Sequence record: OP114734.1
From: Escherichia phage vB_ESM-pEJ01
Reading direction: 5' to 3' (one strand)
Length of the DNA stretch: 64,000 bases
The first letter of the stretch is position 1. Each line of letters starts with the position of its first letter. Below the pieces are notes generated by a model. That model was not told the origin of the DNA. It searched no databases and worked only from the letters and a program-made list of their open reading frames with translations. A program made the translations under genes and the position numbers. This document shows positions 11,081-39,996 of this stretch, piece by piece.

Positions 11081-11716
11081 TCAAGCGAACGTAGAAAGCA
11101 AATGTTTTGTTTCTTTCAGTTGTCTTTCAAGATCTTTGCGTTTCTCTTTAAGTTGCATTTTAGCATTATTTCGCTCTCTTGAAACCTCTCTATCAATGCT
11201 CTTAGTCCAATTATCAATATCAGAATAAGTTGGCATACCCAATTCTAAGCCTAATGCGGTTGGATACAGGGTAACAGTCCATAAACCGCTAATCTTCTTA
11301 AATAGGTCGGGGTGTAGTGTACTATCTACATCTTCCGGTGTCAACTCTTTTTCTTCTTTCAGTGGTGGGATCTCGTCATATGGTTCCAGTGCATTTACTT
11401 TAATATCAGATACCTCATCAAAGAATCCGCGTACATCCGCAGGAAATACACAAGCAATTTCCCAACCGTGGTCACGCAGAGAAGTAATATTTTTCACTCC
11501 CCCACCATGTGTGATGATTGATGTGACATTGCCATCAAGGTCCACCGAATTTACGAGAAATGGCTTATCGTCTGTCAGATCATTATAAAACTGTGCTTCG
11601 GCTGTAGTCATCTCCAGAAACAGATCTCGGATCGGACGACCATCAGGTGCGTTACCTTCCTTGAGAGTATAAAAACGACTTACGATCCATTTTGGCGGTA
11701 AAGCATTAGCGATCAT
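11081..11716 (-). CDS. hypothetical protein (211 aa), basic coiled-coil C-terminus
   Basis: ORF track; no confident motif. Confidence 0.5.
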   Translation of the reverse strand: MIANALPPKWIVSRFYTLKEGNAPDGRPIRDLFLEMTTAEAQFYNDLTDDKPFLVNSVDLDGNVTSIITHGGGVKNITSLRDHGWEIACVFPADVRGFFDEVSDIKVNALEPYDEIPPLKEEKELTPEDVDSTLHPDLFKKISGLWTVTLYPTALGLELGMPTYSDIDNWTKSIDREVSRERNNAKMQLKEKRKDLERQLKETKHLLSTFA

Positions 11717-11766: not shown

Positions 11767-13179
11767 TTAGAAAGTCATGTTATTTGCTAGCTCGTCGAGT
11801 TTTTCTCGTTTCTCGGCTTGCTGTGCGCTTTGTGGTTTAACTTGTGCATTCTCCTGATCTGCGATCTGGTTTGGTACTTCATACCAACGCTGATTGCCTT
11901 TTTTCACACCAACGTTAAACCGTGAATAATAGTTCTTATCACCGTAACGAGACTTGATCTGCTTCATGAGTTGGACGCCCATTTTAGCCAGGTCTTCGGT
12001 TTCGATAACACCCAACATAAAGTCGGCAGTAGCCGGAAGACCTGCCGATTCAGCGGTATCACTCATGTTAAGGTCGGAAGCATCCCAACCCGCGCGGGTA
12101 GTCTGTGCCGCAGTCCAACCAACAACATCCCACTTAACAAAAAATCCTCGCAGTTCTTCCGCAATCGCCTTAACTAGTGTGTAACTATTTTCAGAGTATA
12201 CACGCAAGCGAGACGATGCGCAAATCCCAAGATAGTCAACAATCACAACATCAGGTTTAAACTGTTTCTTGAGTCGCAATTCATTCATTAACGCCTCAAA
12301 GTGATTGGAGTTCGCGCCACCAGTCGGATACTGCTTGATCATCAATTTTCCAACCGGACGATCTCCGATCTTCTTATTCTTAACACGCTTCATACGTGCG
12401 GAATATTCCGCAAAAGAAACATTACCATTATCCAATTCATCTAATGTAATGTCAAGCAAGTTTGCGTCAATACGTTTGGCTACGACATGCTCTGCCATCT
12501 CCATTGAGATATACAATACATCATAACCACATTCCATATAATCCGCAGCAAGAGAACACAGTCCAAGCGATTTGCCAACGTTTACACCAGCAAGCAACAC
12601 GTTTAGCGTTTTTCTTTCCGCCCCTCCTTTCGTGATTTTATTCAACATCGGCAGCTTAAATGGGATCTTATTCGCCTTAGTCTGATATAACAGGAATCGT
12701 TTTTCAAAGTCATTAAACCAGTCATGACCTACATCAGAATCAAACGTAATGGATAGTGCTTCCTGCATAATTTCAGGAATAGCGCCCTCACTAGGCAATT
12801 TCTTATTCTGTTTCTCTTTTGGTAGTTGTGCGTTCGCCTGAATCTCTAGCGCCCGTGACATTGCATTGTACATAGCACGGTCACGAATAAATTTTTCGGT
12901 TTCCTTCATTAACCAATCAAGGTCTTCCGGTGTATTCTCCAGCGAATCGAGAAGAGTTTTAGCCCCTTCATATGTTGTCTGATTGCCTCTCTCCTTGTCT
13001 AAAGCAATCTGTAATGCAGTTGGCGTAGGAATATTGGAATATTCGTCTACGTGCTTTTTAATCAGCTTATAAATCAGTTTTTCTTCGTCTTCGGTGAAGT
13101 AGTCCGCTTTAAGGTGAGGCCATACATTCGTAAAGAATGCGCCATTGTAAATCAACTGTGAAAAGATAGTTTTAATCAT
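11767..13179 (-). CDS. 41: replicative DNA helicase gp41 (DnaB-like)
   Basis: Near-colinear with remembered T4 gp41: LNVLLAGVNVGKSLGLCSLAADY, YISMEMAE, IKSRYGDKN. Confidence 0.93.
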   Translation of the reverse strand: MIKTIFSQLIYNGAFFTNVWPHLKADYFTEDEEKLIYKLIKKHVDEYSNIPTPTALQIALDKERGNQTTYEGAKTLLDSLENTPEDLDWLMKETEKFIRDRAMYNAMSRALEIQANAQLPKEKQNKKLPSEGAIPEIMQEALSITFDSDVGHDWFNDFEKRFLLYQTKANKIPFKLPMLNKITKGGAERKTLNVLLAGVNVGKSLGLCSLAADYMECGYDVLYISMEMAEHVVAKRIDANLLDITLDELDNGNVSFAEYSARMKRVKNKKIGDRPVGKLMIKQYPTGGANSNHFEALMNELRLKKQFKPDVVIVDYLGICASSRLRVYSENSYTLVKAIAEELRGFFVKWDVVGWTAAQTTRAGWDASDLNMSDTAESAGLPATADFMLGVIETEDLAKMGVQLMKQIKSRYGDKNYYSRFNVGVKKGNQRWYEVPNQIADQENAQVKPQSAQQAEKREKLDELANNMTF

Positions 13180-13534: not shown

Positions 13535-14311
13535 TTATTCTATGTCAACAAATTTCCAATTTGGAAAGTCTGGACTCATACAACGACGCCGAACGGTTCC
13601 GCGCTCGTTTCCTAGTACCTTAGATACTTCCGATACAGATTTATAAATCACACCATCAACAAATACAGCCTTTCGGTCTTTCCTGTTTTGGTTTTTGCTC
13701 TTTTCTCTTCTGGCTTCTACGTTATCCGAATCATTCCATTGTCTCTTTGCTGTCTCTCTGGAAGATATTGCCTTTTGTTCTTTAACAATATCTTTAACGA
13801 GTTGTTCTTGTCCTGTTATCTTCGCCCACACATTAACAGACTGGATAGCATTAGCCTCACTCATTCCCCAGCGTTTGCCGGATATATTCTTACGACGCAC
13901 GCGTAGAAATTCGTTAAAGACTTCTTCGCATTGGTGCATATAATCACGAAATCCATATTTCTTAGCCCATGCCTCTTTAATTGCATCAGACATATTTTCG
14001 GCAATACGTCTACGCATCCATGCATACTCCTTATTATTGCGACCGTGACTGGTCATGCACATCATACGCGAAGCCATAATAAGACCCACATGTTTAGGAT
14101 ACATTTTAGCTAAAAGTAGATGTGCTGTAAAGTGTTCCTCTGGAGTCAATGGAACGAGATTTTCGTGGTCATCGGTTCCACCCATACAACGTGGTTTAAC
14201 GTGATGGATCTCTACATATCCGGTCGGCTTCTCGCGGGTTCTTGCTCGTTCAATCAATTTTTTGTAATGTGCTTTGTAGTTCATGTGATCCTCCATATGA
14301 AAAAGGGGCAT
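13535..14311 (-). CDS. HNH homing endonuclease
   Basis: HNH motif GYVEIHHVKPRCMGGTDDHENLVPLTPEEH; basic C-terminal putative DNA-binding region; inserted between gene-40-position ORF and uvsX. Confidence 0.75.
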   Translation of the reverse strand: MPLFHMEDHMNYKAHYKKLIERARTREKPTGYVEIHHVKPRCMGGTDDHENLVPLTPEEHFTAHLLLAKMYPKHVGLIMASRMMCMTSHGRNNKEYAWMRRRIAENMSDAIKEAWAKKYGFRDYMHQCEEVFNEFLRVRRKNISGKRWGMSEANAIQSVNVWAKITGQEQLVKDIVKEQKAISSRETAKRQWNDSDNVEARREKSKNQNRKDRKAVFVDGVIYKSVSEVSKVLGNERGTVRRRCMSPDFPNWKFVDIE

Positions 14312-27420: not shown

Positions 27421-28890
27421 CTATTCCCCATTGCCATTATACTTTCTTTGCTTAGTTATCCACACTCTAACCATCTCTACTGATTCACCGTCAGACGGAT
27501 CAAGAGTTTTTCCTTTTTTCTTCATGCGGTACTTAAATCCGTTAAATCTTGCATTCTCTTGCTCGTTAAAGTCGAACATCTTTTTAAATGATTTTCGCCC
27601 TTTACGCTCACCACATTCTAGCGGAATCATTCGGTCTGTTATTACATTGGCATTAGGTAGAAACGTTTTTAGATAATCCACCAACGCCCAATCAGGAACA
27701 TATAGATTAACATTCTCCTTGCTCTCGTTGTCTCTCAGGTTACAACGCAAACATAATTGAAATGCTGGTTCCAGATAATCAGACACATGACGCGCTTTCA
27801 AAAACTCATTTGTCGGGAGATCACAACTATTAGCAAGACCTTTTAAAATATCAATCTCCCATCGTTGAGGGTTAAAGCTGAACATCACAGCAACATTTTT
27901 ATGATGAATGTAAGAGTTAAGACCATAAGATCCGTAAGGTATCCGCTCACCAATACCATTTGTACACGCTTCACGGTCCCGATTCACGGTATAAATGAAG
28001 TCATCACCACATTCATTTTTAACCATATCAACAAGACGTTCAAAGGTATTGTTTGTTTCTGACTGGTGACGCGACCATCGTTCGGAGTCCGTCATGAGGA
28101 TGATATTAACTCTATCTGTATTTTTATACTCTTTGAAATATAGTCGGGATTCTAGCGCACTCGGAACAAAATCGCAATTTTCATAGTATCGTAGATACTT
28201 CCCGCTATATGTATCAAAGAGATTTGCACATGCTATCGTAACCTTTTTAAAGTCTCCCCACGTACCGTGTTTGTTATCGTTCAAGAAAACAATTTTCGAC
28301 CCGTTCTTCCGGTGTCCTTCGTTATGTTTTACCATAACGTTGATTTTCTTCTCTAATAACGCCTCATAAAGCCCTCTAAGAGAAGAATCGATCATATCAG
28401 TACCATCCTTTGCACTTTCTATCTTTTCTTTGATAGCGGCCTTCTCAGAGTCTTTTAGAACTAAGTTCTGTAGGCATTCCGATTCGTCGGCGATTGGTTC
28501 GCAATGCTTCGTGATAAGTTCAAGATTAGACTTAAACGGATACTCATTAAATTCAACCAGTTGAGGAACTTCATCAATGTAAAGAGCATATTCACCAAAC
28601 ATTTTTGAACGTTCCATATTAGATAACGCTGTATGTGTAATGAATATCACATCAGCACCATCTTTAACTGATTGCATTATCGACGCTTGCACTGTCTTAA
28701 GGCTTCTTAGTCTTGTGCTATCAATCAAGACAGCACGACCGCCCATTCTTTTAAACTTATTGTAAGATTGTTCACTTAAAACACGAGATGGCGAAGCAAT
28801 AACCGCTTTTTCTTTTGTCTCTAGGACGTGGGAAAGTATAGCATCAGTTTTCCCCGCCGCTGGCAATGCGATTAATGTTTCAATCTTCAT
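27421..28890 (-). CDS. P-loop NTPase of unknown function (489 aa)
   Basis: Walker A LPAAGKT near N-terminus; candidate Walker B ALYIDEV about 95 aa later; large unassigned C-terminal region; sits where T4 carries alpha-gt. Confidence 0.6.
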   Translation of the reverse strand: MKIETLIALPAAGKTDAILSHVLETKEKAVIASPSRVLSEQSYNKFKRMGGRAVLIDSTRLRSLKTVQASIMQSVKDGADVIFITHTALSNMERSKMFGEYALYIDEVPQLVEFNEYPFKSNLELITKHCEPIADESECLQNLVLKDSEKAAIKEKIESAKDGTDMIDSSLRGLYEALLEKKINVMVKHNEGHRKNGSKIVFLNDNKHGTWGDFKKVTIACANLFDTYSGKYLRYYENCDFVPSALESRLYFKEYKNTDRVNIILMTDSERWSRHQSETNNTFERLVDMVKNECGDDFIYTVNRDREACTNGIGERIPYGSYGLNSYIHHKNVAVMFSFNPQRWEIDILKGLANSCDLPTNEFLKARHVSDYLEPAFQLCLRCNLRDNESKENVNLYVPDWALVDYLKTFLPNANVITDRMIPLECGERKGRKSFKKMFDFNEQENARFNGFKYRMKKKGKTLDPSDGESVEMVRVWITKQRKYNGNGE

Positions 28891-29357: not shown

Positions 29358-29616
29358 AAATCGCCCTCAGTTCTTTATAGCCTCCAATGTGCTCGTTGTC
29401 AATGAATATCTGGGGGTATACAAACCGGAGGCTCTTTGAGTTTAGCCTCCCCGCCAGTTCTTCAATCATATCACGGTCGGGAATAATGTCAACCCCGACC
29501 TGCTTGAATACTGGTTTAAGTGTATACGGAATACCCAGATCATCCAGTAGCTTCATTGCACTAATACAACCATAACAATGATAAGCCTCTTTCGGTATAC
29601 CGTATATCTCGATCAT
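29347..29616 (-). CDS. glutaredoxin/NrdH-like redoxin
   Basis: CxxC active site YHCYGC near N-terminus, 89 aa. Confidence 0.7.
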   Translation of the reverse strand: MIEIYGIPKEAYHCYGCISAMKLLDDLGIPYTLKPVFKQVGVDIIPDRDMIEELAGRLNSKSLRFVYPQIFIDNEHIGGYKELRAIYDY

Positions 29617-30089
29617 TTCTCAGCCTTTAATCTTTCTAGTTCTTCTTCCAGTTCCTTGATCCGTTGGTCGCGTTCAAAGTCACGCTGTAACTTAGTGGCG
29701 AATACTCGTTTAAACTGATTGTAATCATCGATTTTAAACACTTCTTCTTCGCCATAGCGACGCACAGAAACTTCGTAGTTATTGAAGAATTGTTGCATCA
29801 TTGCTTCGGATGATAGTTCTGCTGATACTACTTTAAAATATTGATCTTCTGTAGGCGAAAACCAATTACAAGCATAAAGATAAACCTTTTCATTGTCTGG
29901 ACACTGGTAAGCCTTACCATCGATTTCAATCACAGAAACATATTCAGGTATACTAGATGAATCAATAGCTAAGACTTTAAACGCACGGTCCCCGATAAAC
30001 TCGGAGATCACACGATTCGCATCACTGGTTGCAAATGCTTTACGCGCTTGTTCGTTTTTCCACTGATAGGTCATACCAACAACAAACAT
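29613..30089 (-). CDS. modular paralog family member (one N-terminal beta-domain plus conserved C-terminal helical module)
   Basis: VGMTYQWKNEQARKAF...FKVLAID...IEIDGKAY...WF; start set to ATG 30089 (GAGGA SD); paralogous to neighbours. Confidence 0.55.
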   Translation of the reverse strand: MFVVGMTYQWKNEQARKAFATSDANRVISEFIGDRAFKVLAIDSSSIPEYVSVIEIDGKAYQCPDNEKVYLYACNWFSPTEDQYFKVVSAELSSEAMMQQFFNNYEVSVRRYGEEEVFKIDDYNQFKRVFATKLQRDFERDQRIKELEEELERLKAEK

Positions 30090-30090
30090 A

Positions 30091-30915
30091 TTACCATCCT
30101 CGCTCTTTACCAATCAAAAATTCAACTTCACGACGTTTAATGTCTTCTTGAAGGTCTTTAATCTTCTGGCGATCTTGCATGATTTCATCCATCTTGTCAA
30201 GTGCCGCAATGAAATCATCGAAACGTTCAAAGGTTTTACCTTCATTTGCTTCGCCAAATTTAACCATTGTCAGGCCGTAACGACTACTAAACAGACGTTT
30301 CAACTGTCCAACGATTTTAGAATCAGTGGTTATAACTTCCAATTCTTCTACTTCACGAAAGAATTTTCTATCAGAATCAATAAACCAGCTAGTTCCTTTA
30401 TGGTCTCTATCTTCGGTTGCGCTCATTAGAGTATGGTCTTTACCATCAATTTCAATTACATCAATTTGCCCACATGGACTAACATTTTTAACAGTAAAAG
30501 GTCTATAATTTATTGCTCGTGCAATAACATAATTAAGGTTAGATACGTTTTCAGCATAATGGCAGAAGTCGGTCATAGCATTCGCATCTTTCCAAGTATA
30601 AGTTTTACCAACTTCCCATTTCTGGGGAACTTCTTCAACTTCACGAAAGAATTTTCTATCGAATGGACTAAAGAAATATGTTGCCGTCCAAATGTCTTTT
30701 CCTGTAGCAGTTTTCGCCGTATGATAAACACCGTCTAGCTCTATTGCATAAATCCAACCGTTACCATCGATCTCGATGATGGTAAATGGCTTGTCACCAA
30801 TAGCTGCACTAATATCGCTGTTAAGTGGAGAAAGAACACCTTCTCCGTTAGTAATAAACTCAGTTTTAGCGTTTTCGTCTTTCCAGGTGTAAGTTTTACC
30901 AATTTCCCATTTCAT
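30091..30915 (-). CDS. modular paralog family member with two tandem N-terminal domains
   Basis: MKWEIGKTYTWKDENAKTEF... and QKWEVGKTYTWKDANAMTDF..., both ending DRKFFREVEE; DNA repeat cttcacgaaagaattttctatc at 30351 and 30639. Confidence 0.6.
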   Translation of the reverse strand: MKWEIGKTYTWKDENAKTEFITNGEGVLSPLNSDISAAIGDKPFTIIEIDGNGWIYAIELDGVYHTAKTATGKDIWTATYFFSPFDRKFFREVEEVPQKWEVGKTYTWKDANAMTDFCHYAENVSNLNYVIARAINYRPFTVKNVSPCGQIDVIEIDGKDHTLMSATEDRDHKGTSWFIDSDRKFFREVEELEVITTDSKIVGQLKRLFSSRYGLTMVKFGEANEGKTFERFDDFIAALDKMDEIMQDRQKIKDLQEDIKRREVEFLIGKERGW

Positions 30916-30927
30916 AATATATTCCCC

Positions 30928-31395
30928 TTAACCGATTTTATCAAGTTCGTTTAATGCTTTCTCTGCTTCCTGTATAGCTTGCACCCTTTCCGGCATTTTG
31001 TCAAGAAAATCTTTCAACTCTTCAAAACTGGAGATATGACGCAAGGCGTTAGCACCGATAGCCGCATGTGATTTGCATTCAAAGCGGATTTTATAATTAT
31101 CCATCGCCAACTTGAGAAGATCAATTAATTTAGATTCTTCTGGAATAATAATAATTTCTTCAAATCTGCTACGGTCATGATCCAGAAACCAACAAGATAG
31201 ACCTACATCGGTTGAACTCATATAAGTTCCATCATGAAGATAAACAGATCGCACGTATCCTTTTTTCGCATCAACCGACGCAACTTTAAACGGTAATCGC
31301 AGATATTTCAAATAATCAACATCATACCATTTAAAAAATTGGTTTGCATCTTTTACATCTTTCCACGCATAGGTCTTACCAACTTCCCATTTCAT
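30928..31395 (-). CDS. modular paralog family member
   Basis: MKWEVGKTYAWKD...FKVASVD; start set to ATG 31395. Confidence 0.55.
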   Translation of the reverse strand: MKWEVGKTYAWKDVKDANQFFKWYDVDYLKYLRLPFKVASVDAKKGYVRSVYLHDGTYMSSTDVGLSCWFLDHDRSRFEEIIIIPEESKLIDLLKLAMDNYKIRFECKSHAAIGANALRHISSFEELKDFLDKMPERVQAIQEAEKALNELDKIG

Positions 31396-31399
31396 AATA

Positions 31400-31927
31400 T
31401 CATCTCTCATTTTTGATACGTGATTCTAATTGGATCATACGGTCGCGCGTTTGTTTGTATTCTCGGATAGCACCGATCCGGCTAGGCATACCATCCAGTA
31501 CGCTCTTAATACCTTCTAGGGTAGTAATTTTGGCAATGCTATTATGTAACCCCATCTTATCGATCAACTGAATGTCGTAGGCTTCCATAAGCAGACCCAG
31601 ACGTTCTAAAGTTAGGTCTTCTTCTTTTTCTTTCGATTCTGGAATCTTAGGTTCAATAGTAACTTCGGTAAAGAAACGACGCTCACCAGCCCAAAACCAC
31701 ACACCATAACAATTGATAGAAGATTCTTTTAACGTCATCGGCTCGGTATCTTCACCGATAATGGTAATTTCACTAACATCACCATCAGCATCAAGTGCTT
31801 CTACCTTAAACGAACGACCGTTCAACAGGTCAATAATCATACTGTTAATGGATGACGAAAATTTAGTCAGTTCAGCTTTTGATATTTCACACTTAATGTT
31901 GTAGATCTTACCTACTTCCCATTCCAT
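31400..31927 (-). CDS. modular paralog family member
   Basis: MEWEVGKIYNIK...FKVEALD...RRFFTEV; start set to ATG 31927 (GAGGTGA SD). Confidence 0.55.
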   Translation of the reverse strand: MEWEVGKIYNIKCEISKAELTKFSSSINSMIIDLLNGRSFKVEALDADGDVSEITIIGEDTEPMTLKESSINCYGVWFWAGERRFFTEVTIEPKIPESKEKEEDLTLERLGLLMEAYDIQLIDKMGLHNSIAKITTLEGIKSVLDGMPSRIGAIREYKQTRDRMIQLESRIKNER

Positions 31928-31937
31928 AATAATCACC

Positions 31938-32447
31938 TCAAATAATTTTCACTGGAATACTATTAACAATCTTGTATTGTACTTGATTGTCAGACCCCCG
32001 CCACGGCTTCTTCGTTGGCATATCTTTAATATAACGCCCATCGATGAACATGTCAACTGATTCTACAATTTTTCTTTGCTCATCATTCAATTGGTCAAGG
32101 GTATAACCAGACCATAGCCAAATATCTTTATTTGGCATCCATGATTTTACTTCATCGATGATCCGCTGTACACCCTTTAAATTGCGTTTATACAGTGGAT
32201 CGCCACCTAAGAATGTTAGCCCCTGAATAAAATCAGGTCTAAGCAGGTCCAGAATCAATCCCATTGTATCATCGGTGAATGGTTCCCCGTTCTTAGGATT
32301 GAGTAGGCTAGCATTAAAGCAACCATCACATGCGTGTGAACATCCGGTAACGTAAAGGGAGACTCTCACTCCCTCACCGTTAACCATATCACAATCTTTA
32401 ATATCGGCATAGCGTAGTTTGCCGTATGTATCAGAACTCATATTCAA
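31938..32447 (-). CDS. nrdG: anaerobic ribonucleotide reductase activating protein NrdG (radical SAM)
   Basis: CSHACDGC radical-SAM cysteine cluster; about 160 aa. Confidence 0.88.
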   Translation of the reverse strand: MNMSSDTYGKLRYADIKDCDMVNGEGVRVSLYVTGCSHACDGCFNASLLNPKNGEPFTDDTMGLILDLLRPDFIQGLTFLGGDPLYKRNLKGVQRIIDEVKSWMPNKDIWLWSGYTLDQLNDEQRKIVESVDMFIDGRYIKDMPTKKPWRGSDNQVQYKIVNSIPVKII

Positions 32448-32658
32448 TTACCCCGAACTCGTTTACAATCTGCGCTTTATAGTAACCACCGCGAGATGCT
32501 AATAGATAAGCTGGGCTTAGGTATTCGTATTCACGGATTTCTACTTGTGCGTTTTCAGTTTCCCAAATCAGTAAAGTCCACATATTTGATTCTCCTGTAA
32601 AGTTGTATCTCGTCTTGATGAATATAGTATAGGGGATCTCGCGATCCCCGTCAAGCAT
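32431..32658 (-). CDS. hypothetical protein (75 aa)
   Basis: ORF track. Confidence 0.4.
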   Translation of the reverse strand: MLDGDREIPYTIFIKTRYNFTGESNMWTLLIWETENAQVEIREYEYLSPAYLLASRGGYYKAQIVNEFGVIEYEF

Positions 32659-33207
32659 TTATTTTAAATTTTTTCGAATGTATTCAGACCATTCCTTCCC
32701 TGTCATTTCGGACCCGTTCTGGAAACTGAAATATTCATACGGCATCGAGTCAAGATAAAACAGGATCATACATCGCGCCATATAATACCAATCACGATTA
32801 AAGTAAACTACGTTATCACCAGTACCATCAACCCCTTTATCATAACCATCGCGGGTACGGGCGACCCATTGAATAGTATCATTTTTCTCGCGGATCGTAA
32901 CAGGTTCCCAATATCCAGCACATCCAGCATGACCACACGAACAAGTCAGGAAATATTGACCTTTTGCTTTGTTGTCATCCCATTCACGATGGATTGGTTC
33001 GATCTCGTGAAACAGTGCTAAGCAATCATGATTATGCAACACTGGCTTACCATCAATCAATGCATGGAATGTATACAAACGACCAGTAGACAAATAGCTA
33101 TCCTCACGCTCAACCAGTTCAATAGCAATCTTTTTAGCTCGTTCTTTGTGTCGTTGTGCTTTACGCTTACGGTTTAATGATTTCATATTCACCTCACACA
33201 TTATCAA
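32659..33207 (-). CDS. hypothetical protein (182 aa), Cys/His-rich
   Basis: ORF track; LTCSCGHAGCAGYW. Confidence 0.5.
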   Translation of the reverse strand: MIMCEVNMKSLNRKRKAQRHKERAKKIAIELVEREDSYLSTGRLYTFHALIDGKPVLHNHDCLALFHEIEPIHREWDDNKAKGQYFLTCSCGHAGCAGYWEPVTIREKNDTIQWVARTRDGYDKGVDGTGDNVVYFNRDWYYMARCMILFYLDSMPYEYFSFQNGSEMTGKEWSEYIRKNLK

Positions 33208-33614
33208 AGGTCGCGATATAGTACATTATGAAAATGAGAACTTGCATTACCAATATTGTAGATAATAAATTCTTCATCCGGCGCTTGCGCTACAAATTGA
33301 GTATGAGCAACCGCCACAACCTTAAAAATACGATCCGTGATCTTGTGTTTAATTTCGGCTCCTACTTCCATAGGAACATATTCATGTGTTTCTGTTTCAG
33401 TCGCAAAACAGCCATCTTCTTCATAAGCACGAACAAATCGATCGCAATCAGTACGCTTAACAAATTCAAGAGTATACAATTCTCGTGAATTGTCGGTATA
33501 GACTAATACAGAATTATTCTGATAGCGAATCACATACAGGTTATTATCATCGTCAATTACGCAAAAGCTACGGATTTGTGTTCCTTCGCCTTTACTCCAG
33601 CAGATATTAACCAC
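33204..33614 (-). CDS. hypothetical protein (136 aa)
   Basis: ORF track; overlaps 33557..33751 ORF, start uncertain. Confidence 0.45.
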   Translation of the reverse strand: MVNICWSKGEGTQIRSFCVIDDDNNLYVIRYQNNSVLVYTDNSRELYTLEFVKRTDCDRFVRAYEEDGCFATETETHEYVPMEVGAEIKHKITDRIFKVVAVAHTQFVAQAPDEEFIIYNIGNASSHFHNVLYRDL

Positions 33615-33751
33615 AGTTCCTCTAATAAAAAACTTTCCTTTAAATTAAAACTAGCCAATGTGCTAGCGTGCATTTTAACAACAACACCATCGCCAATTTC
33701 CAGTTTACGAAGTTTAACTTCTTTGCTCAGTACACAAAACATCATCATCAT
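33557..33751 (-). CDS. small hypothetical protein (64 aa)
   Basis: ATG run at 33740-33751 with GAGAGGA SD directly downstream of promoter 33781-33808; overlaps next ORF (possible frameshift or alternative start). Confidence 0.35.
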   Translation of the reverse strand: MMMMFCVLSKEVKLRKLEIGDGVVVKMHASTLASFNLKESFLLEELWLISAGVKAKEHKSVAFA

Positions 33752-33780
33752 GTTGTCCTCTCGTTGTTTTCGATGTGAGC

Positions 33781-33808
33781 ATTATACATTAGCTAATCAT
33801 GTTGTCAA
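33781..33808 (-). promoter_or_regulatory. sigma70-type early promoter (-35 TTGACA rc 33803-33808; -10 TATAAT rc 33781-33786; 16-nt spacer)
   Basis: Perfect consensus hexamers on minus strand. Confidence 0.5.
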
Positions 33809-33824
33809 CACCCCAAAACGAAAA

Positions 33825-33846
33825 AGCCGACCCTTTCGGATCGGCT
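33825..33846 (-). terminator. rho-independent terminator 3' of nrdD
   Basis: rc hairpin agccgatccgaaagggtcggct followed by UUUUCGUUUU. Confidence 0.5.
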
Positions 33847-33851
33847 GAAAT

Positions 33852-35714
33852 TTACATGTGCTTAACGCGGTTTACCATCTCGGAGTGTTTCCCGTGGTTA
33901 AATGGACGCAGATCAACAGATCCAAGATATCCACTAACGCGACGGATAACATTCATCTTTTCCAGATTGTCATTGCCGCAATCAGGACAAACAAAACCAG
34001 ACTCGGTTGCTCTCATTTCCTTAGTAGATCCGCATACATGACATACATCAGAAGGAGTATTAACACCGAAGTAGTGCAATTTATCCATTGCATAGTCTAC
34101 TACAGTTTCAAGACCTTTCAGGTTGTTTTTCATGTCTGGGAACTCAACATAAGAGATCATGCCACCGGACGCCAGCCAGTGATAATCTTTCTCAAAGTCG
34201 ATTTTCTCAAATGGAGTGACTTTCCGGTCTACGTCAAGGTGGAATGAGTTGGTGTACCAGTCTTTATCGGTAGCACCCTTAACAATACCAAATTTCTCTC
34301 TGTCCAGTCGATTAAATCGATAGCAAAGACTCTCGGCTGGCGTACCGTAAAGACTAAACCCAAGTCCGGTTTCGTCCTTCCATTTTTCAGTATAATGACG
34401 CAAGATCTTAAGAATATGTTTACCGTATCGCTGCGCATCTTCCGAATCAAACGGATGAACACCAAACAGGACGCTCAATACCTCATGTAAACCAATATAT
34501 CCAAGAGAGATACTAGCGCGACCATCTTTCAACACTTCCAAAATTTCATCGTTTTGATGAATACGGAAAAATGCACCTTCGGTATACAGTACAGGAGCAA
34601 CATTGGCTTTAGCCCCTTTTAAAGCGTCTACGCGACTCATAAGCGCATCAAAACAAATAGGCAGACGATTCGCTAGCTCTTGTTCGAATAGCTCAATTCT
34701 GCGCATTACAGACTCTTTACCAGCACGACGCGCGGCAATAAGGGCAATACGCGGAAGATTCAGAGTCACAACACCTAAGTTATTACGTCCGTCTAATACT
34801 TCTTCGCCTTTCTCATTATGCCACACACCCAGGAAGCTACGACAACCCATCGGGCTAACCGGAACACTAGATCCAGTGATGCTACGGTTATTCTTCGCAG
34901 AGATATAATCAGGGTAAAGACGCTTACTCGAACATTCCAATGCAAGTTGCTTAATGTCGTAGTTCGGATCTTCCGGTTTAAGGTTTAATCCTTCTTCTAA
35001 GAACATCACCAGCTTAGGAAACACCGGAGTTATACCGTCTTTACCTAAACCTTTAGTTCGAACTTTCAGGATCGCTTTCTGAATCAGTTTTTCTTCCCAG
35101 CTAGTACCCATACCAAAGGTTAAAGTCACAAAAGGCGTTTGACCGTTGGTGGAGAACAAAGTGTTGATTTCATATTCCAACGCTTGATACCCGTCTAAAG
35201 TTTCTTTTTCTGTCTTCTCTTGTGCATAGAGAGTATCAGCTTTGATTCCGTAGGTTTCGGCATCAGCAAGGTGTTTATGATATGTTTTCTCAACGTATGG
35301 CGCTAAAACCTGATCGATGTTTGCGATTGTGGTCCCGCCATATTGATGACTTGCCACCTGTGCGATAATTTGAGCGGTTACAGCACAAGCAACGCCGATT
35401 GATTTCGGACTTTCGATTTGTGCGCTACCCAATTTAAAACCATTCTCTAACATGTCTTTGAGATTAACAAGACAGCAGTTAGTAAACGGCATAGCGGGTG
35501 CATAATCCATATCATGATAATGAATGTCACCGTCTACATGCGCTTTATAGATGTGCTCAGGTAACACGGTTTTAGCAATCTGTTTAGACACAGCACCAGC
35601 AATCAGATCTCGACGTGTCGGGAATGTTCGCGCGTCTTTGTTCGCGTTCTCTTTGCTTACTTCGTTTTCTTTACCCGTTGCGATCTCTGTAATGTCTTTG
35701 ATTAGTTTTTCCAT
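33852..35714 (-). CDS. nrdD: anaerobic ribonucleoside-triphosphate reductase NrdD (glycyl radical enzyme), uninterrupted
   Basis: 620 aa; C-terminal glycyl-radical motif RRVSGYLGS and Zn-ribbon CHVCG...CPDCG. Confidence 0.93.
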   Translation of the reverse strand: MEKLIKDITEIATGKENEVSKENANKDARTFPTRRDLIAGAVSKQIAKTVLPEHIYKAHVDGDIHYHDMDYAPAMPFTNCCLVNLKDMLENGFKLGSAQIESPKSIGVACAVTAQIIAQVASHQYGGTTIANIDQVLAPYVEKTYHKHLADAETYGIKADTLYAQEKTEKETLDGYQALEYEINTLFSTNGQTPFVTLTFGMGTSWEEKLIQKAILKVRTKGLGKDGITPVFPKLVMFLEEGLNLKPEDPNYDIKQLALECSSKRLYPDYISAKNNRSITGSSVPVSPMGCRSFLGVWHNEKGEEVLDGRNNLGVVTLNLPRIALIAARRAGKESVMRRIELFEQELANRLPICFDALMSRVDALKGAKANVAPVLYTEGAFFRIHQNDEILEVLKDGRASISLGYIGLHEVLSVLFGVHPFDSEDAQRYGKHILKILRHYTEKWKDETGLGFSLYGTPAESLCYRFNRLDREKFGIVKGATDKDWYTNSFHLDVDRKVTPFEKIDFEKDYHWLASGGMISYVEFPDMKNNLKGLETVVDYAMDKLHYFGVNTPSDVCHVCGSTKEMRATESGFVCPDCGNDNLEKMNVIRRVSGYLGSVDLRPFNHGKHSEMVNRVKHM

Positions 35715-35758
35715 TGTATCACCTATGAAAAAGCGGGATTTCTCCCGCTCGTTGATAG

Positions 35759-36253
35759 TTATTTTACCAGTTCTGCTAATTCTTTTTCTTTAGCTTCTAG
35801 TTCAGCTTTAAGCTGTTTAATCTCTTGTCGCTTCTTATTAGCGGCTTCTTGCTTACTATTTCGGATAACCTGATCTAGATACAACTCCCAATCCTGAATA
35901 TTTTTGATAATGTAACCGTCAACATTAATTGGTCGGAGATTCAGTACAGCTTCCAGTTTAGTTGCAAAAACTTTAATTGCTGGTGTGAAGTATTCATACT
36001 CGTTATCTTCAAACCAATAACCTAGACTTGCATTCTCAATACGAAGATGAAGTTTAAGATCAAGGTCTTTATCTTCGGTGTAAAGATCTTTCACCTGACC
36101 CAGCGAACTAACAACAACTTTAAAACGAATTTTATCTACACCACCAAACACATCAGTAAGTATACCAGCAATTGAGCTATTAGCGCAAGATTGGTCGCTG
36201 AATGCGTCAAGGTTTTCTTTAGTTACAGTATACCAAACATCTTGTACCCACAT
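35759..36253 (-). CDS. hypothetical protein (164 aa), coiled-coil C-terminus
   Basis: ORF track. Confidence 0.5.
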   Translation of the reverse strand: MWVQDVWYTVTKENLDAFSDQSCANSSIAGILTDVFGGVDKIRFKVVVSSLGQVKDLYTEDKDLDLKLHLRIENASLGYWFEDNEYEYFTPAIKVFATKLEAVLNLRPINVDGYIIKNIQDWELYLDQVIRNSKQEAANKKRQEIKQLKAELEAKEKELAELVK

Positions 36254-36307
36254 AATATAATCCTCTCATTGTTAAGTGGGAGTATTATAGCATACTCCCT
36301 TCGCATG

Positions 36308-37486
36308 TCAAGCACTAACTTTTTTCTTTACTGCTTTCACCTTCTGGCGAATTGCTCGAATCTCTTCGATCTCTTTTTCAGTCTCTTTAACAATTTCTTT
36401 GCGATTCTGAATATCTGTATCTAGATTATCATCAAGTTTAGGCAGCATGTCAATCAAGAACTTTTTAAAGTCTTTCAGGTTTCGGATAACAGCACCTTCA
36501 CCCATTACCGCCACGCCTACACCATCCGGCAGATCACCAAACAGCTTAACCAGTTCAGACAGATGATCATGATCTTCTAGTGCTTCTTCCGGTTCAGATG
36601 GCAGTTCAACAAAGTTATAACGTTCATCATTGCTGATCAAGTGATACCAGCAAAGCCCGAAAGATTTCGGTGTATATTCTACACCATCAATTTCAACCGC
36701 GTCAACACTTCCATAATCATCTACTTTAGTTACCTTAAATCCTTGTCCCAGCTTTTGAACAATTTCAACAACATGACTTGATACAGTTTCAGCGGTAAAC
36801 CAATATGGCAAATTATGCTGATTTGGTTTGTAGCGTTCACCTACTTTAAATCTCTGACCATCCGCTTGCATAGAATGAAATTGTTGTTTCGTGATTTCCG
36901 CGAAGTATTCAAATTCGCTACCGTCAAACAAGCAATTCCATTGATCACAAAAACGATCTGCCTTAACAGTTTCACCTTTCGCGGTGATCATGGTAGCTGA
37001 TCCGTGCAATTCTTCTTCAACTAAAAAGCCATATTCGACAAAATCAACAAGTTTCATAGCTTCTTTGTGATCTGGATCATGCTCTCCCCAGAATCGCTTA
37101 AATTCTTGCAAACCTTCTGGGGTAAACGAATAACATTTACCTTTTTCAAAGTAAGTCGGCATTGCATCCTCTTTCTTGTTCATCGCTTCGTATGCCTCTT
37201 TTGAGATACGTTTAAAGAATTTACGCTCATCGTGCATAATCATAGTAGCCCAATAATAAACGATATCCTCAGCGGAATAAACTACATCTCCAGCTTCAAT
37301 AGTAATAACATGACCGTGGTCATCTTTTTCTAATACTTTAAAGCCCTTTTCTACGATTTCAGCAACCCGAATATGACCACGGCGCGAAGCATCGGTCAGA
37401 ATAATTGAATAGCGAGAAAAGTCTAGAAACTCATCTTTACCGCCTTCACGGAATGCATAGTAATGACCTTCAAAGAATTTAGCCAT
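36308..37486 (-). CDS. modular paralog family member with three tandem N-terminal domains
   Basis: Three repeats (...GFKVLEKDDHGHVITIE...; ...GFLVEEELHG...; ...GFKVTKVDDYGSVDAVEIDG...) plus C-terminal LSELVKLFGDLP helical module; GAGGATTATATTATG start. Confidence 0.6.
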   Translation of the reverse strand: MAKFFEGHYYAFREGGKDEFLDFSRYSIILTDASRRGHIRVAEIVEKGFKVLEKDDHGHVITIEAGDVVYSAEDIVYYWATMIMHDERKFFKRISKEAYEAMNKKEDAMPTYFEKGKCYSFTPEGLQEFKRFWGEHDPDHKEAMKLVDFVEYGFLVEEELHGSATMITAKGETVKADRFCDQWNCLFDGSEFEYFAEITKQQFHSMQADGQRFKVGERYKPNQHNLPYWFTAETVSSHVVEIVQKLGQGFKVTKVDDYGSVDAVEIDGVEYTPKSFGLCWYHLISNDERYNFVELPSEPEEALEDHDHLSELVKLFGDLPDGVGVAVMGEGAVIRNLKDFKKFLIDMLPKLDDNLDTDIQNRKEIVKETEKEIEEIRAIRQKVKAVKKKVSA

Positions 37487-37542
37487 AATATAATCCTCTC
37501 GTTGTTTAGACGGGAGTATCTTACTACTCCCGTTTCATCATG

Positions 37543-38109
37543 TCAAGCGTTAAATGACTTTTGGATCTCTTTCAGTTCAGCTACTTTATCGGCGCTGAAT
37601 TTAGCGTAGGTATCATGTCGAATAATTTCACTTTCAAGAAAGGTTTCCAGCCGAGATCTATTTTCAATAAGGAACTCTTTCAGGTCTTCTGCGTTCTTGA
37701 TAAAGATTTTATTGTCGGTAATGTCATCTTCAATCGCAAAGGAGATAGAGCGAACTTTACCAAACAAGTTAATCAAATCTTCCAGTGATTCTTCTTTCTT
37801 AACTGGTTTCATTTCTTCAAACTGCTTTTTAGTGATGCGTTTAAAGTATTTGCGCTCGCTTGCGTCAATCATGATTGACGCGCCCTCATAATCATGAGTT
37901 TCTACCAAATATACTTTACCCATAACATTAACCGTAAGAACTTTAAAGCCCTTGTGAAGCACACCATACAGGAACGTGTTATGTTGTGGATAGCGTTTAA
38001 CAAATTCCTCTGCGGACTCAGCATTACGGAAAGTGTAATAACGACCTCGTTCAAAAACAGCATCATTTGAAGACTTAGCCGGATACAATTTATACGTTTT
38101 CTGTACCAT
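37543..38109 (-). CDS. modular paralog family member
   Basis: MVQKTYKLY...GFKVLTVNVMGKVYLVE...RKYFKRI; C-terminal LEDLINLFGKV module; start at ATG 38109. Confidence 0.55.
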   Translation of the reverse strand: MVQKTYKLYPAKSSNDAVFERGRYYTFRNAESAEEFVKRYPQHNTFLYGVLHKGFKVLTVNVMGKVYLVETHDYEGASIMIDASERKYFKRITKKQFEEMKPVKKEESLEDLINLFGKVRSISFAIEDDITDNKIFIKNAEDLKEFLIENRSRLETFLESEIIRHDTYAKFSADKVAELKEIQKSFNA

Positions 38110-38123
38110 AATATAATCCTCTA

Positions 38124-38396
38124 TCATTTCACTAATTGAACAGCACGGAACAGAATGCGCTCACACGGAAGCAGCATAAATTCCCAACGCGGATCAAAGT
38201 CTTTAGCGGTGTATGTTTTCCCATCAACCGAGATTTCACTTACATAACCAACAGGTGACACTTTAAGAACAGTAAACCCATTCTTGATGACTTCGTAGGT
38301 ATCTTTCACCCCTTCGTATTCATCATCTAAGAAGTCTTTATGTGCTTGCTCAGATTTAAAAACATAGGCAACACCGGATTTAAACATCTTACGCAT
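38124..38396 (-). CDS. modular paralog family member (single N-domain, no C-terminal module)
   Basis: MRKMFKSGVAYVFKSEQAHKDF...GFTVLKVSPVGYVSEISVDGKTY; start at ATG 38396 with AGGAGAATC SD. Confidence 0.5.
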   Translation of the reverse strand: MRKMFKSGVAYVFKSEQAHKDFLDDEYEGVKDTYEVIKNGFTVLKVSPVGYVSEISVDGKTYTAKDFDPRWEFMLLPCERILFRAVQLVK

Positions 38397-38427
38397 TGTT
38401 GATTCTCCTTCTTGATTAGATGGGAGT

Positions 38428-38456
38428 ATTTTACTACTCCCATTTCTTATTGTCAA
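38428..38456 (-). promoter_or_regulatory. sigma70-type early promoter (-35 TTGACA rc 38451-38456; -10 TAAAAT; inverted repeat gggagta/tactccc)
   Basis: 17-nt spacer; IR 38422-38441 overlaps -10. Confidence 0.45.
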
Positions 38457-39240: not shown

Positions 39241-39996
39241 TTATACCTCATTCAGTTCTATATCAAGTTCATTTTCAATAATATAGGCATTAACTGCCCG
39301 TGCCGCATCATCTTCTGTGTCAAATCTTCCTATATACACACCGCGAACTTTAGCACCGTAATTACCTTGTTTTGGTACTTTGTAAACGTATCTATGACGG
39401 GAACTTGCTGCTTTTTGGAGCTTCTTGCCATATTCAGACTTTGCATATTCTATATCATCAATCTCGTTTATACAAGACCTATCACCAAAATGTTTCAACG
39501 CTGCAAGATTATATGCATAAGCCGCACCGATCTCGGAGGGAAAATATCCTAAATGTATAGACTTCCCATCCAACATTATTGCACCAGTCCAATAACCTTT
39601 ATTCTTATTAAACGACACACCTTTATACTTCGAATATGTTTTGCATTTGGTCTTGCTCATATTCATATTATTTTGTTTGCTTGTCGTCTCTCTAAGGTTT
39701 TCAATGCGGCTATTATAACGATCTCGGTCTTTATGATCTATATACTTAGGACAATGACCATGAAACATATGATAGATAACACGGTGCATACGTTCGTATC
39801 GCTCGCCAGTCCATACAATACGATACCCATCGGGGGTATCACTTCCAGCTAATCCGTTTATAACACCTTTTCGGTGCGGGTGAATCTTCCACCTAAGAAA
39901 ACCATCATCATAATAAAACCGTGAATGATATAAATCATACAAACGTTTATCTTCTGGAGTCTTGTGTATAACCTCATATTTTAACATTGGTGACAT
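39241..39996 (-). CDS. HNH homing endonuclease with two AP2-type DNA-binding domains
   Basis: HNH HRVIYHMFHGHCPKYIDHKDRDRYNSRIENLRETTSKQN; AP2-like YKGVSFNKNKGYWTGAIM...AAYAYN and YGAKVRGVYIGRFDTEDDAARAVN. Confidence 0.8.
   Translation of the reverse strand: MSPMLKYEVIHKTPEDKRLYDLYHSRFYYDDGFLRWKIHPHRKGVINGLAGSDTPDGYRIVWTGERYERMHRVIYHMFHGHCPKYIDHKDRDRYNSRIENLRETTSKQNNMNMSKTKCKTYSKYKGVSFNKNKGYWTGAIMLDGKSIHLGYFPSEIGAAYAYNLAALKHFGDRSCINEIDDIEYAKSEYGKKLQKAASSRHRYVYKVPKQGNYGAKVRGVYIGRFDTEDDAARAVNAYIIENELDIELNEV

What the first reader, a model, noticed from the sequence alone, without database searches (positions are those of the whole stretch)
29613..38396. Expanded modular paralog family in two clusters flanking nrdG/nrdD
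At least seven consecutive or near-consecutive genes (29613-31927 and 36308-38396) share a roughly 95-aa N-terminal domain (consensus about GKxYxxKxxxxxxxF...GFKVxxVD...IExDG...W...ERKFFxxV) present in 1, 2 or 3 tandem copies per protein, fused in most members to a conserved helical C-terminal module (L..L..LFG.......F..FL..M). Domain copy number varies and shared nucleotide stretches indicate recent duplication. I cannot assign the domain to any family I know. This pattern is typical of fast-evolving host-interaction or counter-defence proteins and is my best candidate for an undescribed system here.
Basis: seen in the sequence. Interest (0 to 1): 0.75.

Follow-up and report, generated by a model that had tools for sequence, protein, structure and literature searches.

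The report
Expanded GoF-family early phage proteins
The repeated domain is real, but it is the small beta-barrel of the phage T4 GoF/Frd.2/MotB.1 early-protein family described in 2025, here expanded to nine genes and twelve barrels in an RB49-like coliphage, and its biochemical function is still unknown.

Summary
The window is a Krischvirus (RB49-like T-even phage). Together they hold twelve copies of a ~90-aa domain in one, two or three copies per protein. Eight of the nine proteins also share a C-terminal module. Leave-one-out profiles recover every copy at 16-62 bits, against 7.3 bits or less for shuffles.

The interpretation needs correcting. The domain is not unassigned. Profiles place it in the T4 GoF/Frd.2/MotB.1 family (Kim et al. 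2025), and RefSeq already labels two of the genes goF. The AlphaFold2 model (pLDDT 94) is an SH3-like barrel whose nearest solved fold is FeoA, as that paper reported.

The duplications are old (14-49% identity). Within the genus, divergence sits in the barrel (42-77% identity) on a nearly constant C-terminal module (85-100%). dS is raised too and dN/dS stays below 1, so diverged alleles are being exchanged.

Three genes sit behind known PeSL early promoter/stem-loop cassettes. The proteins are most likely non-enzymatic binders acting on mRNA metabolism. This is a new member of a known kind, of moderate interest.

The parts
29613..30089 (-). Gene A, 158 aa: one GoF-type barrel plus the C-terminal module (RB49p048 ortholog)
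   Evidence: 46 bits leave-one-out; PHROG 5347 E 1e-60
30091..30915 (-). Gene B, 274 aa: two tandem barrels (49% identical to each other) plus the C-terminal module (RB49p049). One-barrel alleles exist in other Krischvirus genomes.
   Evidence: The one-barrel form is P0035, 182 aa, and is seen in AV108/ELT4.
30928..31395 (-). Gene C, 155 aa: one barrel plus the C-terminal module (RB49p050)
   Evidence: Barrel 46% versus C-terminal module 93% identical to the Makalu allele.
31400..31927 (-). Gene D, 175 aa: one barrel plus the C-terminal module (RB49p051). This is the protein modelled full length.
   Evidence: Barrel 74-77% versus C-terminal module 98-99% identical across the genus.
35759..36253 (-). 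Gene E, 164 aa: the most divergent barrel plus a shortened C-terminal module that lacks the hairpin (RB49p057).
   Evidence: 16.4 bits, E 3e-4 leave-one-out; PHROG 15067 and 3710
36308..37486 (-). Gene F, 392 aa: three tandem barrels plus the C-terminal module (RB49 'frd.2', RefSeq 'goF mRNA metabolism modulator')
   Evidence: (PHROG 8944 E 7e-214). T4 Frd.2 aligns to barrel 3 and the linker.
37543..38109 (-). Gene G, 188 aa: one barrel, the only clearly basic one (net +4), plus the C-terminal module (RB49p059, 'goF mRNA metabolism modulator')
38124..38396 (-). Gene H, 90 aa: a barrel alone with no C-terminal module (RB49p060). This is the protein used for the high-confidence model.
   Evidence: (pLDDT 94.3)
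11081..11716 (-). Gene I, 211 aa: the ninth family member, one barrel plus the C-terminal module, immediately downstream of the DnaB-type helicase gene 41 (11767-13179)
   Evidence: (E 6e-8, not in the training set)
36278..36311 (-). PeSL cassette upstream of E: TTGACA, 16 nt, TATAAT, with the -10 box inside a GGGAGTA...TACTCCC stem-loop
   Evidence: element class described in PMC2839356
37512..37546 (-). PeSL cassette upstream of F: TTGACA, 17 nt, TAAGAT, with the same stem-loop over the -10 box
   Evidence: (repeat D2)
38422..38456 (-). PeSL cassette upstream of H: TTGACA, 17 nt, TAAAAT, with the same stem-loop over the -10 box

Best explanation
These genes are an anciently diversified paralog array of the GoF/Frd.2/MotB.1 family of T4-like phage early proteins.

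Shown here:
- Each protein carries one to three copies of a ~90-aa SH3-like beta-barrel. Its layout is b1, two helices, b2-b3-b4, a loop, a short helix, then b5. FeoA is its nearest solved fold.
- In eight of the nine proteins a disordered linker follows, then a shared module of helix, hairpin, helix and a long amphipathic terminal helix.
- Invariant residues are hydrophobic core positions, and no conserved polar constellation is present. This points to binding modules rather than enzymes.
- Across the genus the barrel is the variable part and the C-terminal module is nearly constant.

Inferred:
- Cluster 2 genes are transcribed early from their own PeSL promoter cassettes. Cluster 1 is co-transcribed with nrdG and nrdH.
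- The terminal helix dimerises the protein. The barrel binds a macromolecule of the mRNA-metabolism or transcription-termination machinery, or the mRNA itself, as the genetics of T4 goF suggest. Each paralog or allele would have a different specificity.
- Several paralogs natively carry an aromatic residue at the position where the T4 GoF D25Y gain-of-function change lies, and a K or R at the G84R position. They may therefore have the RNA-stabilising activity that wild-type T4 GoF lacks.

My confidence in family membership is about 0.9. My confidence in the mRNA-metabolism mechanism is about 0.35-0.4.
For: Family membership:
- PHROG families annotated goF match A, B, F, G and H.
- RefSeq names F and G goF.
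- The window-only profile hits T4 GoF residues 4-90 at 34.3-40.7 bits and Frd.2 residues 2-85 at 15.2-15.5 bits.
- The representative search returns the GoF ortholog P0071.
- The BFVD fold search returns 54 hits at E<=1e-3, all of the 50 hits listed being phage proteins and most from T4-like phages, including 'GoF putative mRNA metabolism modulator' of VR7 at TM 0.75.

Fold:
- The AlphaFold2 model has pLDDT 94.3.

Binding module rather than enzyme: the invariant columns are Y, F and F, and the near-invariant ones are F, V and G.

Barrel as the variable part: barrel identity is 42-77% against 85-100% for the C-terminal module in diverged alleles.

Early expression: consensus sigma-70 promoters with a stem-loop lie upstream of E, F and H. 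These match the published PeSL early cassettes.

Link to mRNA:
- GoF(D25Y) stabilises gene 41 leader mRNA post-transcriptionally.
- At the D25 column the paralogs carry Y (B2), W (C) and F (D, F1, F2). At the G84 column they carry K (B1, B2, F1, G) and R (D).
- T4 frd.2 was the only 'Fit' gene of unknown function in a T4 knock-down screen.
Against: - Wild-type GoF and MotB.1 had little effect in the reporter assay, and wild-type function is unknown.
- Most of these proteins and barrels are acidic, with pI 4.8-5.8 and net charge -3 to -9. That is unusual for direct RNA binders.
- The closest solved folds (FeoA, DtxR/IdeR SH3-like domains, MIB repeat, Tudor domains of PcrA/UvrD, CarD) are mainly protein-binding modules.
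- The aromatic residue at the D25 column could be a structural packing residue.
- Promoter activity and expression timing were not measured here.
- The C-terminal module is modelled only at pLDDT 58-83, and dimerisation is inferred from helix pattern and from SDS-PAGE dimers of T4 GoF and MotB.1.
Confidence: 0.5

Rival explanations
1. The barrels are a panel of protein-binding inhibitors or adaptors aimed at host proteins unrelated to RNA metabolism, for example anti-phage defence components or other takeover targets. The constant C-terminal module would supply oligomerisation or a common effector contact. Barrel allele diversity would reflect an arms race with variable host targets.
For: - Barrel-specific allele divergence sits on a constant C-terminal module.
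- There are twelve barrels per genome, against three in T4.
- The genes lie in a hyperplastic region with PeSL shuffling cassettes.
- The nearest folds are protein-interaction modules (SH3-like, Tudor, FeoA).
- The proteins are acidic.
- Domain copy number is polymorphic: B occurs with one or two barrels.
Against: - No match to any PADLOC model, though that library holds defence rather than anti-defence proteins.
- dN/dS is below 1 everywhere and dS is raised in parallel, so positive selection is not shown.
- All eight genes are syntenic in the five Krischvirus genomes compared, and 55 of 58 phage records cover at least 80% of the interval. The array is therefore not gained and lost like typical anti-defence islands.
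- The only functional data in the family point to mRNA.
Confidence: 0.3
2. The barrels are true LSm/Hfq-type RNA chaperones that assemble into rings and bind RNA directly on conserved faces. Tandem-barrel proteins would build pseudo-oligomeric rings.
For: - Kim et al. describe the fold as LSm-like and list Hfq among structural relatives.
- The barrel has five antiparallel strands.
- Tandem fusion of Sm-like domains is known elsewhere (my own background knowledge, not tested here).
Against: - No Pfam LSM or Hfq match even at E<=1.
- Two helices are inserted between b1 and b2, and there is no N-terminal helix.
- The barrels are acidic.
- AlphaFold3 gave no confident dimers or hexamers for the T4 proteins.
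- Wild-type GoF was inactive on RNA.
Confidence: 0.07
3. The proteins are FeoA-like or DtxR-SH3-like domains with a role in metal or iron handling.
Against: - There is no Pfam FeoA match.
- No conserved His or Cys ligands are present.
- Kim et al. note that GoF lacks the histidine residues that the related metal-dependent regulators use to coordinate metal.
- No feoB-like partner is present in the phage.
Confidence: 0.02
4. The similarity is compositional or a chance artefact of AT-rich phage ORFs.
For: Pairwise identities are low (14-33% for most pairs).
Against: - Leave-one-protein-out profiles score 16-62 bits against 7.3 bits or less for 200 shuffles.
- The profile recovers a member not used for training, and also T4 GoF.
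- A confident common fold is predicted for two paralogs.
Confidence: 0.01

Closest known systems
T4 GoF (ComC-alpha), the founding member of the GoF/Frd.2/MotB.1 'LSm-like fold' family (Kim et al. 2025, PMC12152347)
   Same: - A ~90-aa N-terminal barrel with the same conserved core pattern (Y in b1, F after helix 1, FKV in b2, G turn, FF-EV at the end), scoring 34-41 bits with a window-only profile.
- The same nearest PDB fold, FeoA.
- A linker followed by a separate C-terminal domain.
- An acidic protein.
- Encoded by a T4-like phage.
   Different: - The T4 GoF C-terminal domain is different and short.
- T4 has single-barrel proteins only.
- The window proteins share their own helix, hairpin, helix and long-helix module.
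- Several carry an aromatic residue and a K or R where GoF has D25 and G84.
- No clear one-to-one ortholog exists: best BLAST E-values are 2e-5 to 7e-3 against G, A, D and I.
T4 Frd.2 and T4 MotB.1
   Same: - Frd.2 aligns to barrel 3 plus the linker of F (BLAST E 2e-5) and to the profile at about 15 bits (window-only) or 36 bits (broad profile).
- RB49's annotators named F 'frd.2'.
- MotB.1 matches over the whole barrel, but weakly (11-13.6 bits).
   Different: - F has three barrels and 392 aa, against 128 aa for Frd.2.
- Its genomic position differs: next to nrdD and gene 49 here, next to frd and gene 32 in T4.
- The MotB.1 relationship is only marginal by sequence here.
FeoA and the C-terminal SH3-like domain of DtxR/IdeR/SloR (CATH 2.30.30.90)
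   Different: There is no sequence-profile match, there are no metal ligands, and the biological context differs. The resemblance is at fold level only.
Hfq / LSm proteins
   Same: It is a small five-stranded bent antiparallel barrel, and there is a literature link to mRNA stability through GoF(D25Y).
   Different: - No Sm motifs and no Pfam hit.
- The helices lie between b1 and b2 rather than at the N terminus.
- No evidence of ring assembly.
- The barrels are acidic.
PeSL (promoter-early stem-loop) cassettes of RB49/phi1 (Arbiol et al. 2010, PMC2839356; Comeau et al. 2014, PMC4122927)
   Same: The elements upstream of E, F and H have a strong sigma-70-like -35/-10 pair, a stem-loop overlapping the -10 box, a Shine-Dalgarno sequence and a start codon. 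They lie in intergenic positions of a hyperplastic region.
   Different: Nothing differs in kind. The stems here read GGGAGTA/TACTCCC rather than the 'generally GGGG...CCCC' form mentioned in the paper.

Membership tests
GoF/Frd.2/MotB.1 family (Kim et al. 2025) | N-terminal domain of about 82-91 aa predicted as a bent five-stranded antiparallel beta-sheet or barrel (SH3-like/'LSm-like') | tested here: met
GoF/Frd.2/MotB.1 family (Kim et al. 2025) | [quoted passage not shown] | tested here: met
   With the window-only profile, GoF scores 34.3-40.7 bits over residues 4-90, Frd.2 scores 15.2-15.5 bits, and MotB.1 scores only 11.1 bits. With the broad profile, MotB.1 scores 13.6 bits, E 0.007. 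PHROG goF families match. The GoF ortholog P0071 is retrieved at E 4e-6 from 1.84e9 proteins. The feature is met for GoF and Frd.2 and is marginal for MotB.1.
GoF/Frd.2/MotB.1 family (Kim et al. 2025) | The barrel is joined by a flexible linker to a separate, family-variable C-terminal domain | tested here: met
   In the D model, residues 93-103 have pLDDT below 50, followed by a separate C-terminal module. H is an exception, being a barrel only.
GoF/Frd.2/MotB.1 family (Kim et al. 2025) | Early-expressed, non-essential gene of a T4-like phage | tested here: inconclusive
   The T4-like phage context is shown. Consensus early-type promoters in PeSL cassettes lie upstream of E, F and H. Expression timing and dispensability cannot be measured with these tools.
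GoF/Frd.2/MotB.1 family (Kim et al. 2025) | Effect on mRNA level or stability (shown only for the GoF D25Y mutant) | not testable with these tools
   There is only the alignment observation that B2, C, D, F1 and F2 carry Y, W or F at the D25 column.
Hfq / LSm | Sm1/Sm2 sequence motifs recognised by Pfam LSM or Hfq models | tested here: not met
   No such Pfam hit even at E<=1.
Hfq / LSm | An N-terminal helix followed by five strands, with closest structural neighbours among Sm or Hfq proteins | tested here: not met
Hfq / LSm | Hexameric or heptameric ring assembly | not testable with these tools
   No multimer prediction is available here. The paper reports no confident AlphaFold3 multimers for the T4 proteins.
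FeoA (PF04023) | Sequence match to the FeoA model, and an feoB partner | tested here: not met
PeSL regulatory cassette | An intergenic sigma-70-like -35/-10 pair with an adjacent or overlapping stem-loop, followed by a Shine-Dalgarno sequence and a start codon, in a hyperplastic region of an RB49-type genome | tested here: met
   Three sites score 10-12 of 12 promoter matches, with a 7-bp stem spanning the -10 box. The stem pattern occurs 3 times against 0.00 expected.

The most novel reading that the evidence does not exclude
The twelve barrels are a diversifying recognition repertoire. Each barrel would bind a different host or phage target. Old, highly diverged barrel alleles (42-77% identity) are exchanged by recombination onto an almost invariant C-terminal scaffold. 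That pattern resembles receptor-binding tips or anti-defence panels and has not been described for the GoF family. Some paralogs natively carry the 'gain-of-function' residues of T4 GoF(D25Y/G84R), so this array could reveal the long-sought wild-type activity of GoF, and its targets could include host defence or RNA-decay factors.
Probability: 0.25. Interest if true: 0.7.

Novelty: new member of a known kind. Interest (0 to 1): 0.4.

Why it matters

The Krischvirus array offers natural material for that question:
- nine paralogs and twelve barrels, some with the residues that make T4 GoF active on mRNA;
- one-, two- and three-barrel architectures;
- circulating barrel alleles on a constant C-terminal module.

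This gives a ready set of constructs for the existing reporter assay and for partner screens. It also shows which half of the protein is likely to determine specificity.

It does not reveal a new kind of system. The family, its fold and the flanking PeSL cassettes are all already published.

Tried and rejected
- Pfam, NCBIfam, PADLOC and PDB sequence searches gave nothing significant for any of the nine proteins. The weak RecT, KIB1-4 and CARF_PIN hits are below cut-offs and inconsistent between paralogs, so I rejected them.
- The word-indexed homolog search returned only close Krischvirus relatives, which made it of little use for depth.
- The long proteins among the representative hits (for example P0037 with 5094 aa and 14 stretches) looked like possible cellular relatives. 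Four of the six I tested carry confident SpaA, cadherin-like/Big_9 or fn3 repeat domains; the other two gave only weak or unrelated Pfam hits. All of these long hits match only a 20-60-residue part of the profile, so I rejected them.
- The afdb50 fold library was unavailable.
- tblastn with B against the phage collection reached almost only Krischvirus, so it could not map copy number in other genera.
- I tested gene conversion between paralogs as the source of the diverged barrel alleles and rejected it. The alleles stay closest to the same-position paralog, except for one chimera, P0029.
- No further members were found in the rest of the RB49 genome.
- The supplementary files of Kim et al. 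were not held, so I could not check whether RB49 proteins appear in their tree.

Full report
**Context.** The interval is 95-98% identical at DNA level to RB49, kaaroe, Phi1 and more than 50 other Krischvirus genomes (Straboviridae, T4-like coliphages). It matches 58 phage records, and 55 of them cover at least 80% of it. All genes concerned are on the minus strand. In transcription order they read gene 49, H, G, F, E, nrdD, two ORFs, one small ORF, nrdG, D, C, B, A, nrdH.

**The observation.** Six-frame ORF listing, all-against-all BLASTP and a profile built from the putative domains confirm the repeated ~90-aa domain.
- It occurs in A (29613-30089), B (30091-30915, two copies), C (30928-31395) and D (31400-31927).
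- It also occurs in F (36308-37486, three copies), G (37543-38109) and H (38124-38396, the domain alone).
- The profile also found a ninth gene, I (11081-11716), next to the DnaB-type helicase gene 41. It scored E 6e-8 although it was not used for training.
- The rest of the RB49 genome holds no further copy. A Krischvirus genome therefore carries nine genes and twelve barrels, against three single-barrel genes in T4.

The similarity is not compositional. When a whole protein is left out, the profile of the others recovers each of its domains at 16.4-62.2 bits, while 200 shuffles of the same domain never exceed 7.3 bits.

**The C-terminal module.** Eight proteins share it.
- BLAST alignments run through it, and PHROG 5347 matches A-D end to end.
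- Profiles of this part alone are significant only for A, B, C and F.
- E lacks the hairpin segment.

**Duplication age.** The claim of recent duplication does not hold. Barrel identities are 14-33% for most pairs, 38% for F1/G and 49% for B1/B2. DNA repeats are confined to short conserved motifs: 69 nt at 65-75%, and 30 nt at 97% within B.

**What the domain is.**
- Pfam, NCBIfam, PADLOC and PDB sequences give nothing.
- PHROGs links the proteins to families annotated 'goF mRNA metabolism modulator' (8944, 13003, 2980) and to several unnamed families (5347, 622, 3710).
- RefSeq already names F ('frd.2') and G this way.
[quoted passage not shown] The window-only profile matches the GoF N-terminal domain end to end (34.3-40.7 bits) and Frd.2 at 15.2-15.5 bits. 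MotB.1 reaches only 11 bits, or 13.6 bits with a broader profile.
- Against 1.84 billion representative proteins the profile finds only 86 hits at E<=1e-3.
- The hits of 400 aa or fewer are small phage-type proteins, including a GoF ortholog, P0071.
- The hits above 400 aa match only 20-60 residues of the profile; of six tested, four are SpaA, cadherin-like/Ig or fn3 repeat proteins and two gave no informative Pfam hit.
- Pooling the small hits have one barrel, 11 have two and 2 have three. Tandem architectures therefore exist in other lineages as well.

Kim et al. 2025 (PMC12152347) describe exactly this family. [quoted passage not shown] Wild-type function is unknown. The D25Y mutant stabilises the gene 41 leader mRNA post-transcriptionally, and mutants of all three genes plate normally. 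The main text of that paper contains no mention of RB49, paralogs or duplication, and 'tandem' appears only for its reporter assay. Its supplements were not available.

**Structure.**
- AlphaFold2 on H with the twelve-barrel alignment gives pLDDT 94.3 and the order b1, two helices, b2-b3-b4, loop, short helix, b5.
- The D model also shows a disordered linker (93-103), then helix 102-116, a hairpin at 121-134, helix 137-145 and a long helix 147-174. Nothing in the PDB matches that module.
- Against predicted viral structures, H matches 54 proteins at E<=1e-3. The 50 listed come from phages of Escherichia, Proteus, Aeromonas, Edwardsiella, Morganella, Citrobacter, Pectobacterium, Klebsiella and Acinetobacter. 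They include a VR7 protein named GoF (TM 0.75) and several hits per genome in some phages.
- I therefore regard 'SH3-like/FeoA-like small barrel' as established at prediction level. 'LSm' is a looser label that my searches do not specifically support.

**Evolution within the genus.** I compared the window with RB49, Delraymugoa, Ec_Makalu_001, SFHK24 and Brandy.
- All eight genes are syntenic in every genome.
- Whole-gene dN/dS is 0.06-0.45, against 0.02-0.09 for nrdD and nrdG and about 0-0.03 for gene 49. The family genes are less constrained than core genes but still under purifying selection.
- Splitting each gene shows that divergence sits in the barrel:

| Gene | Barrel identity | C-terminal module identity |
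|---|---|---|
| A | 57-59% | 85-87% |
| C | 46% | 93% |
| D | 74-77% | 98-99% |
| E | 50% | 82-83% |
| G | 83-84% | 95-99% |

- dS is raised in the same barrels (0.43-1.5). The pattern therefore reflects old alleles recombined onto a conserved 3' half, not a burst of positive selection.
- Diverged barrels remain closest to the same-position paralog, so inter-paralog conversion is not the source.
- Other variants in the databases fit the same picture: a one-barrel B (P0035; AV108 and ELT4), a D-type C-terminal module with a 45% barrel (P0041), and a chimera of a D-like barrel with the B C-terminal module (P0029).

**Regulation.**
- E, F and H are each preceded by TTGACA, 16-17 nt, then TATAAT, TAAGAT or TAAAAT. 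The -10 box lies inside a GGGAGTA...TACTCCC stem-loop. There are three such stems in the window against 0.00 expected.
- These are the PeSL (promoter-early stem-loop) cassettes described for RB49 and phi1. They act as strong early promoters, as terminators, and as recombination sites that shuffle ORFs in hyperplastic regions (also PMC4122927).
- Cluster 1 has no such intergenic elements. Its genes abut or overlap, which suggests co-transcription from nrdG to nrdH. Expression timing is inferred, not measured.

**Mechanism.**
- The invariant and near-invariant columns are hydrophobic core or turn residues: Y, F, F, F, V and G. I therefore read the barrel as a binding module, not an enzyme.
- Most proteins and barrels are acidic. 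Only the G barrel is clearly basic. This fits poorly with generic RNA binding, and it agrees with wild-type GoF being inactive in the reporter assay.
- Aligning T4 GoF to the paralogs shows something useful. At the column of the gain-of-function change D25Y, five window barrels carry Y, W or F (B2, C, D, F1, F2). At the G84R column, five carry K or R (B1, B2, D, F1, G). Both T4 suppressor changes thus move GoF towards residues common in this array. Some paralogs may therefore have natively the activity that only the T4 mutant shows. This is an inference from alignment, and a purely structural role for those residues is not excluded.
- A knock-down screen found T4 frd.2 to be the only fitness-relevant T4 gene of unknown function. 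By contrast, amber mutants plate normally.

Weighing this, I favour barrel-mediated binding to mRNA or to the RNA decay or termination machinery, with dimerisation through the C-terminal helix (about 0.35-0.4). The main rival is a repertoire of binders against other host proteins, including defence factors (about 0.3). A true Hfq-like ring chaperone, a FeoA-like metal role and an artefact are all unlikely.

**Verdict.** The sequence pattern is real and somewhat larger than reported. It is not an undescribed system. It is an expanded, multi-barrel branch of the GoF/Frd.2/MotB.1 family, set in a known PeSL-rich hyperplastic region. Several features appear to be new relative to the literature I could read:
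- the copy number, nine genes and twelve barrels;
- the two- and three-barrel fusions;
- the shared C-terminal module;
- barrel-specific allele exchange;
- the match between T4 suppressor residues and native residues in the paralogs.

These features make the family's unknown function more tractable experimentally. Interest is moderate.

Noticed in passing
window 36278-36311, 37512-37546, 38422-38456 (minus strand): Three near-identical promoter and stem-loop cassettes (TTGACA, N16-17, -10 box, with GGGAGTA...TACTCCC spanning the -10). They match the published PeSL elements of RB49/phi1, which act as early promoters, terminators and recombination sites.
   Followed up: yes
window 11081-11716 (-): A ninth family member (211 aa, one barrel plus the C-terminal module) lies immediately downstream of the DnaB-type helicase gene 41 (11767-13179). 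T4 GoF(D25Y) acts on gene 41 mRNA, so the adjacency may or may not be meaningful.
   Followed up: partly
alignment columns of T4 GoF D25 and G84; window barrels B2, C, D, F1, F2 and B1, B2, D, F1, G: Both T4 goF suppressor substitutions (D25Y, G84R) change GoF to residue classes that are native in several Krischvirus paralogs: aromatic at the D25 column and K or R at the G84 column.
   Followed up: partly
window 39241-39996 (-): A 251-aa ORF with HNH_3 and AP2 domains (homing-endonuclease type) is inserted between nrdC and dam. In RB49, nrdC is followed directly by dam, so this looks like a mobile insertion.
   Followed up: partly
window 13535-14311 (-): A 258-aa ORF with an I-TevI-type DNA-binding domain at its C terminus and an HNH-like motif near its N terminus. 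It is probably another free-standing homing endonuclease close to gene 41.
   Followed up: no
window 32659-33207 (-), between nrdG and nrdD: An ORF that is not in the family and has no Pfam match shows the same allele-replacement behaviour. It is 97-100% identical to RB49, Delraymugoa and Brandy but only 51% identical (dS about 1.5) to Ec_Makalu_001 and SFHK24.
   Followed up: partly
database proteins P0029, P0035, P0041 (Krischvirus-like contigs): Natural architectural variants occur: a truncated D-like barrel fused to the B-type C-terminal module (P0029), a one-barrel version of B (P0035; also in phages AV108 and ELT4), and a 45%-identical barrel on a 96%-identical D-type C-terminal module (P0041).
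   Followed up: partly
window 27421-28890 (-): A 489-aa ORF with a weak DEAD/DEAH helicase N-terminal match lies between gene 55 and the nrdH cluster. It is annotated as hypothetical in RB49.
   Followed up: no
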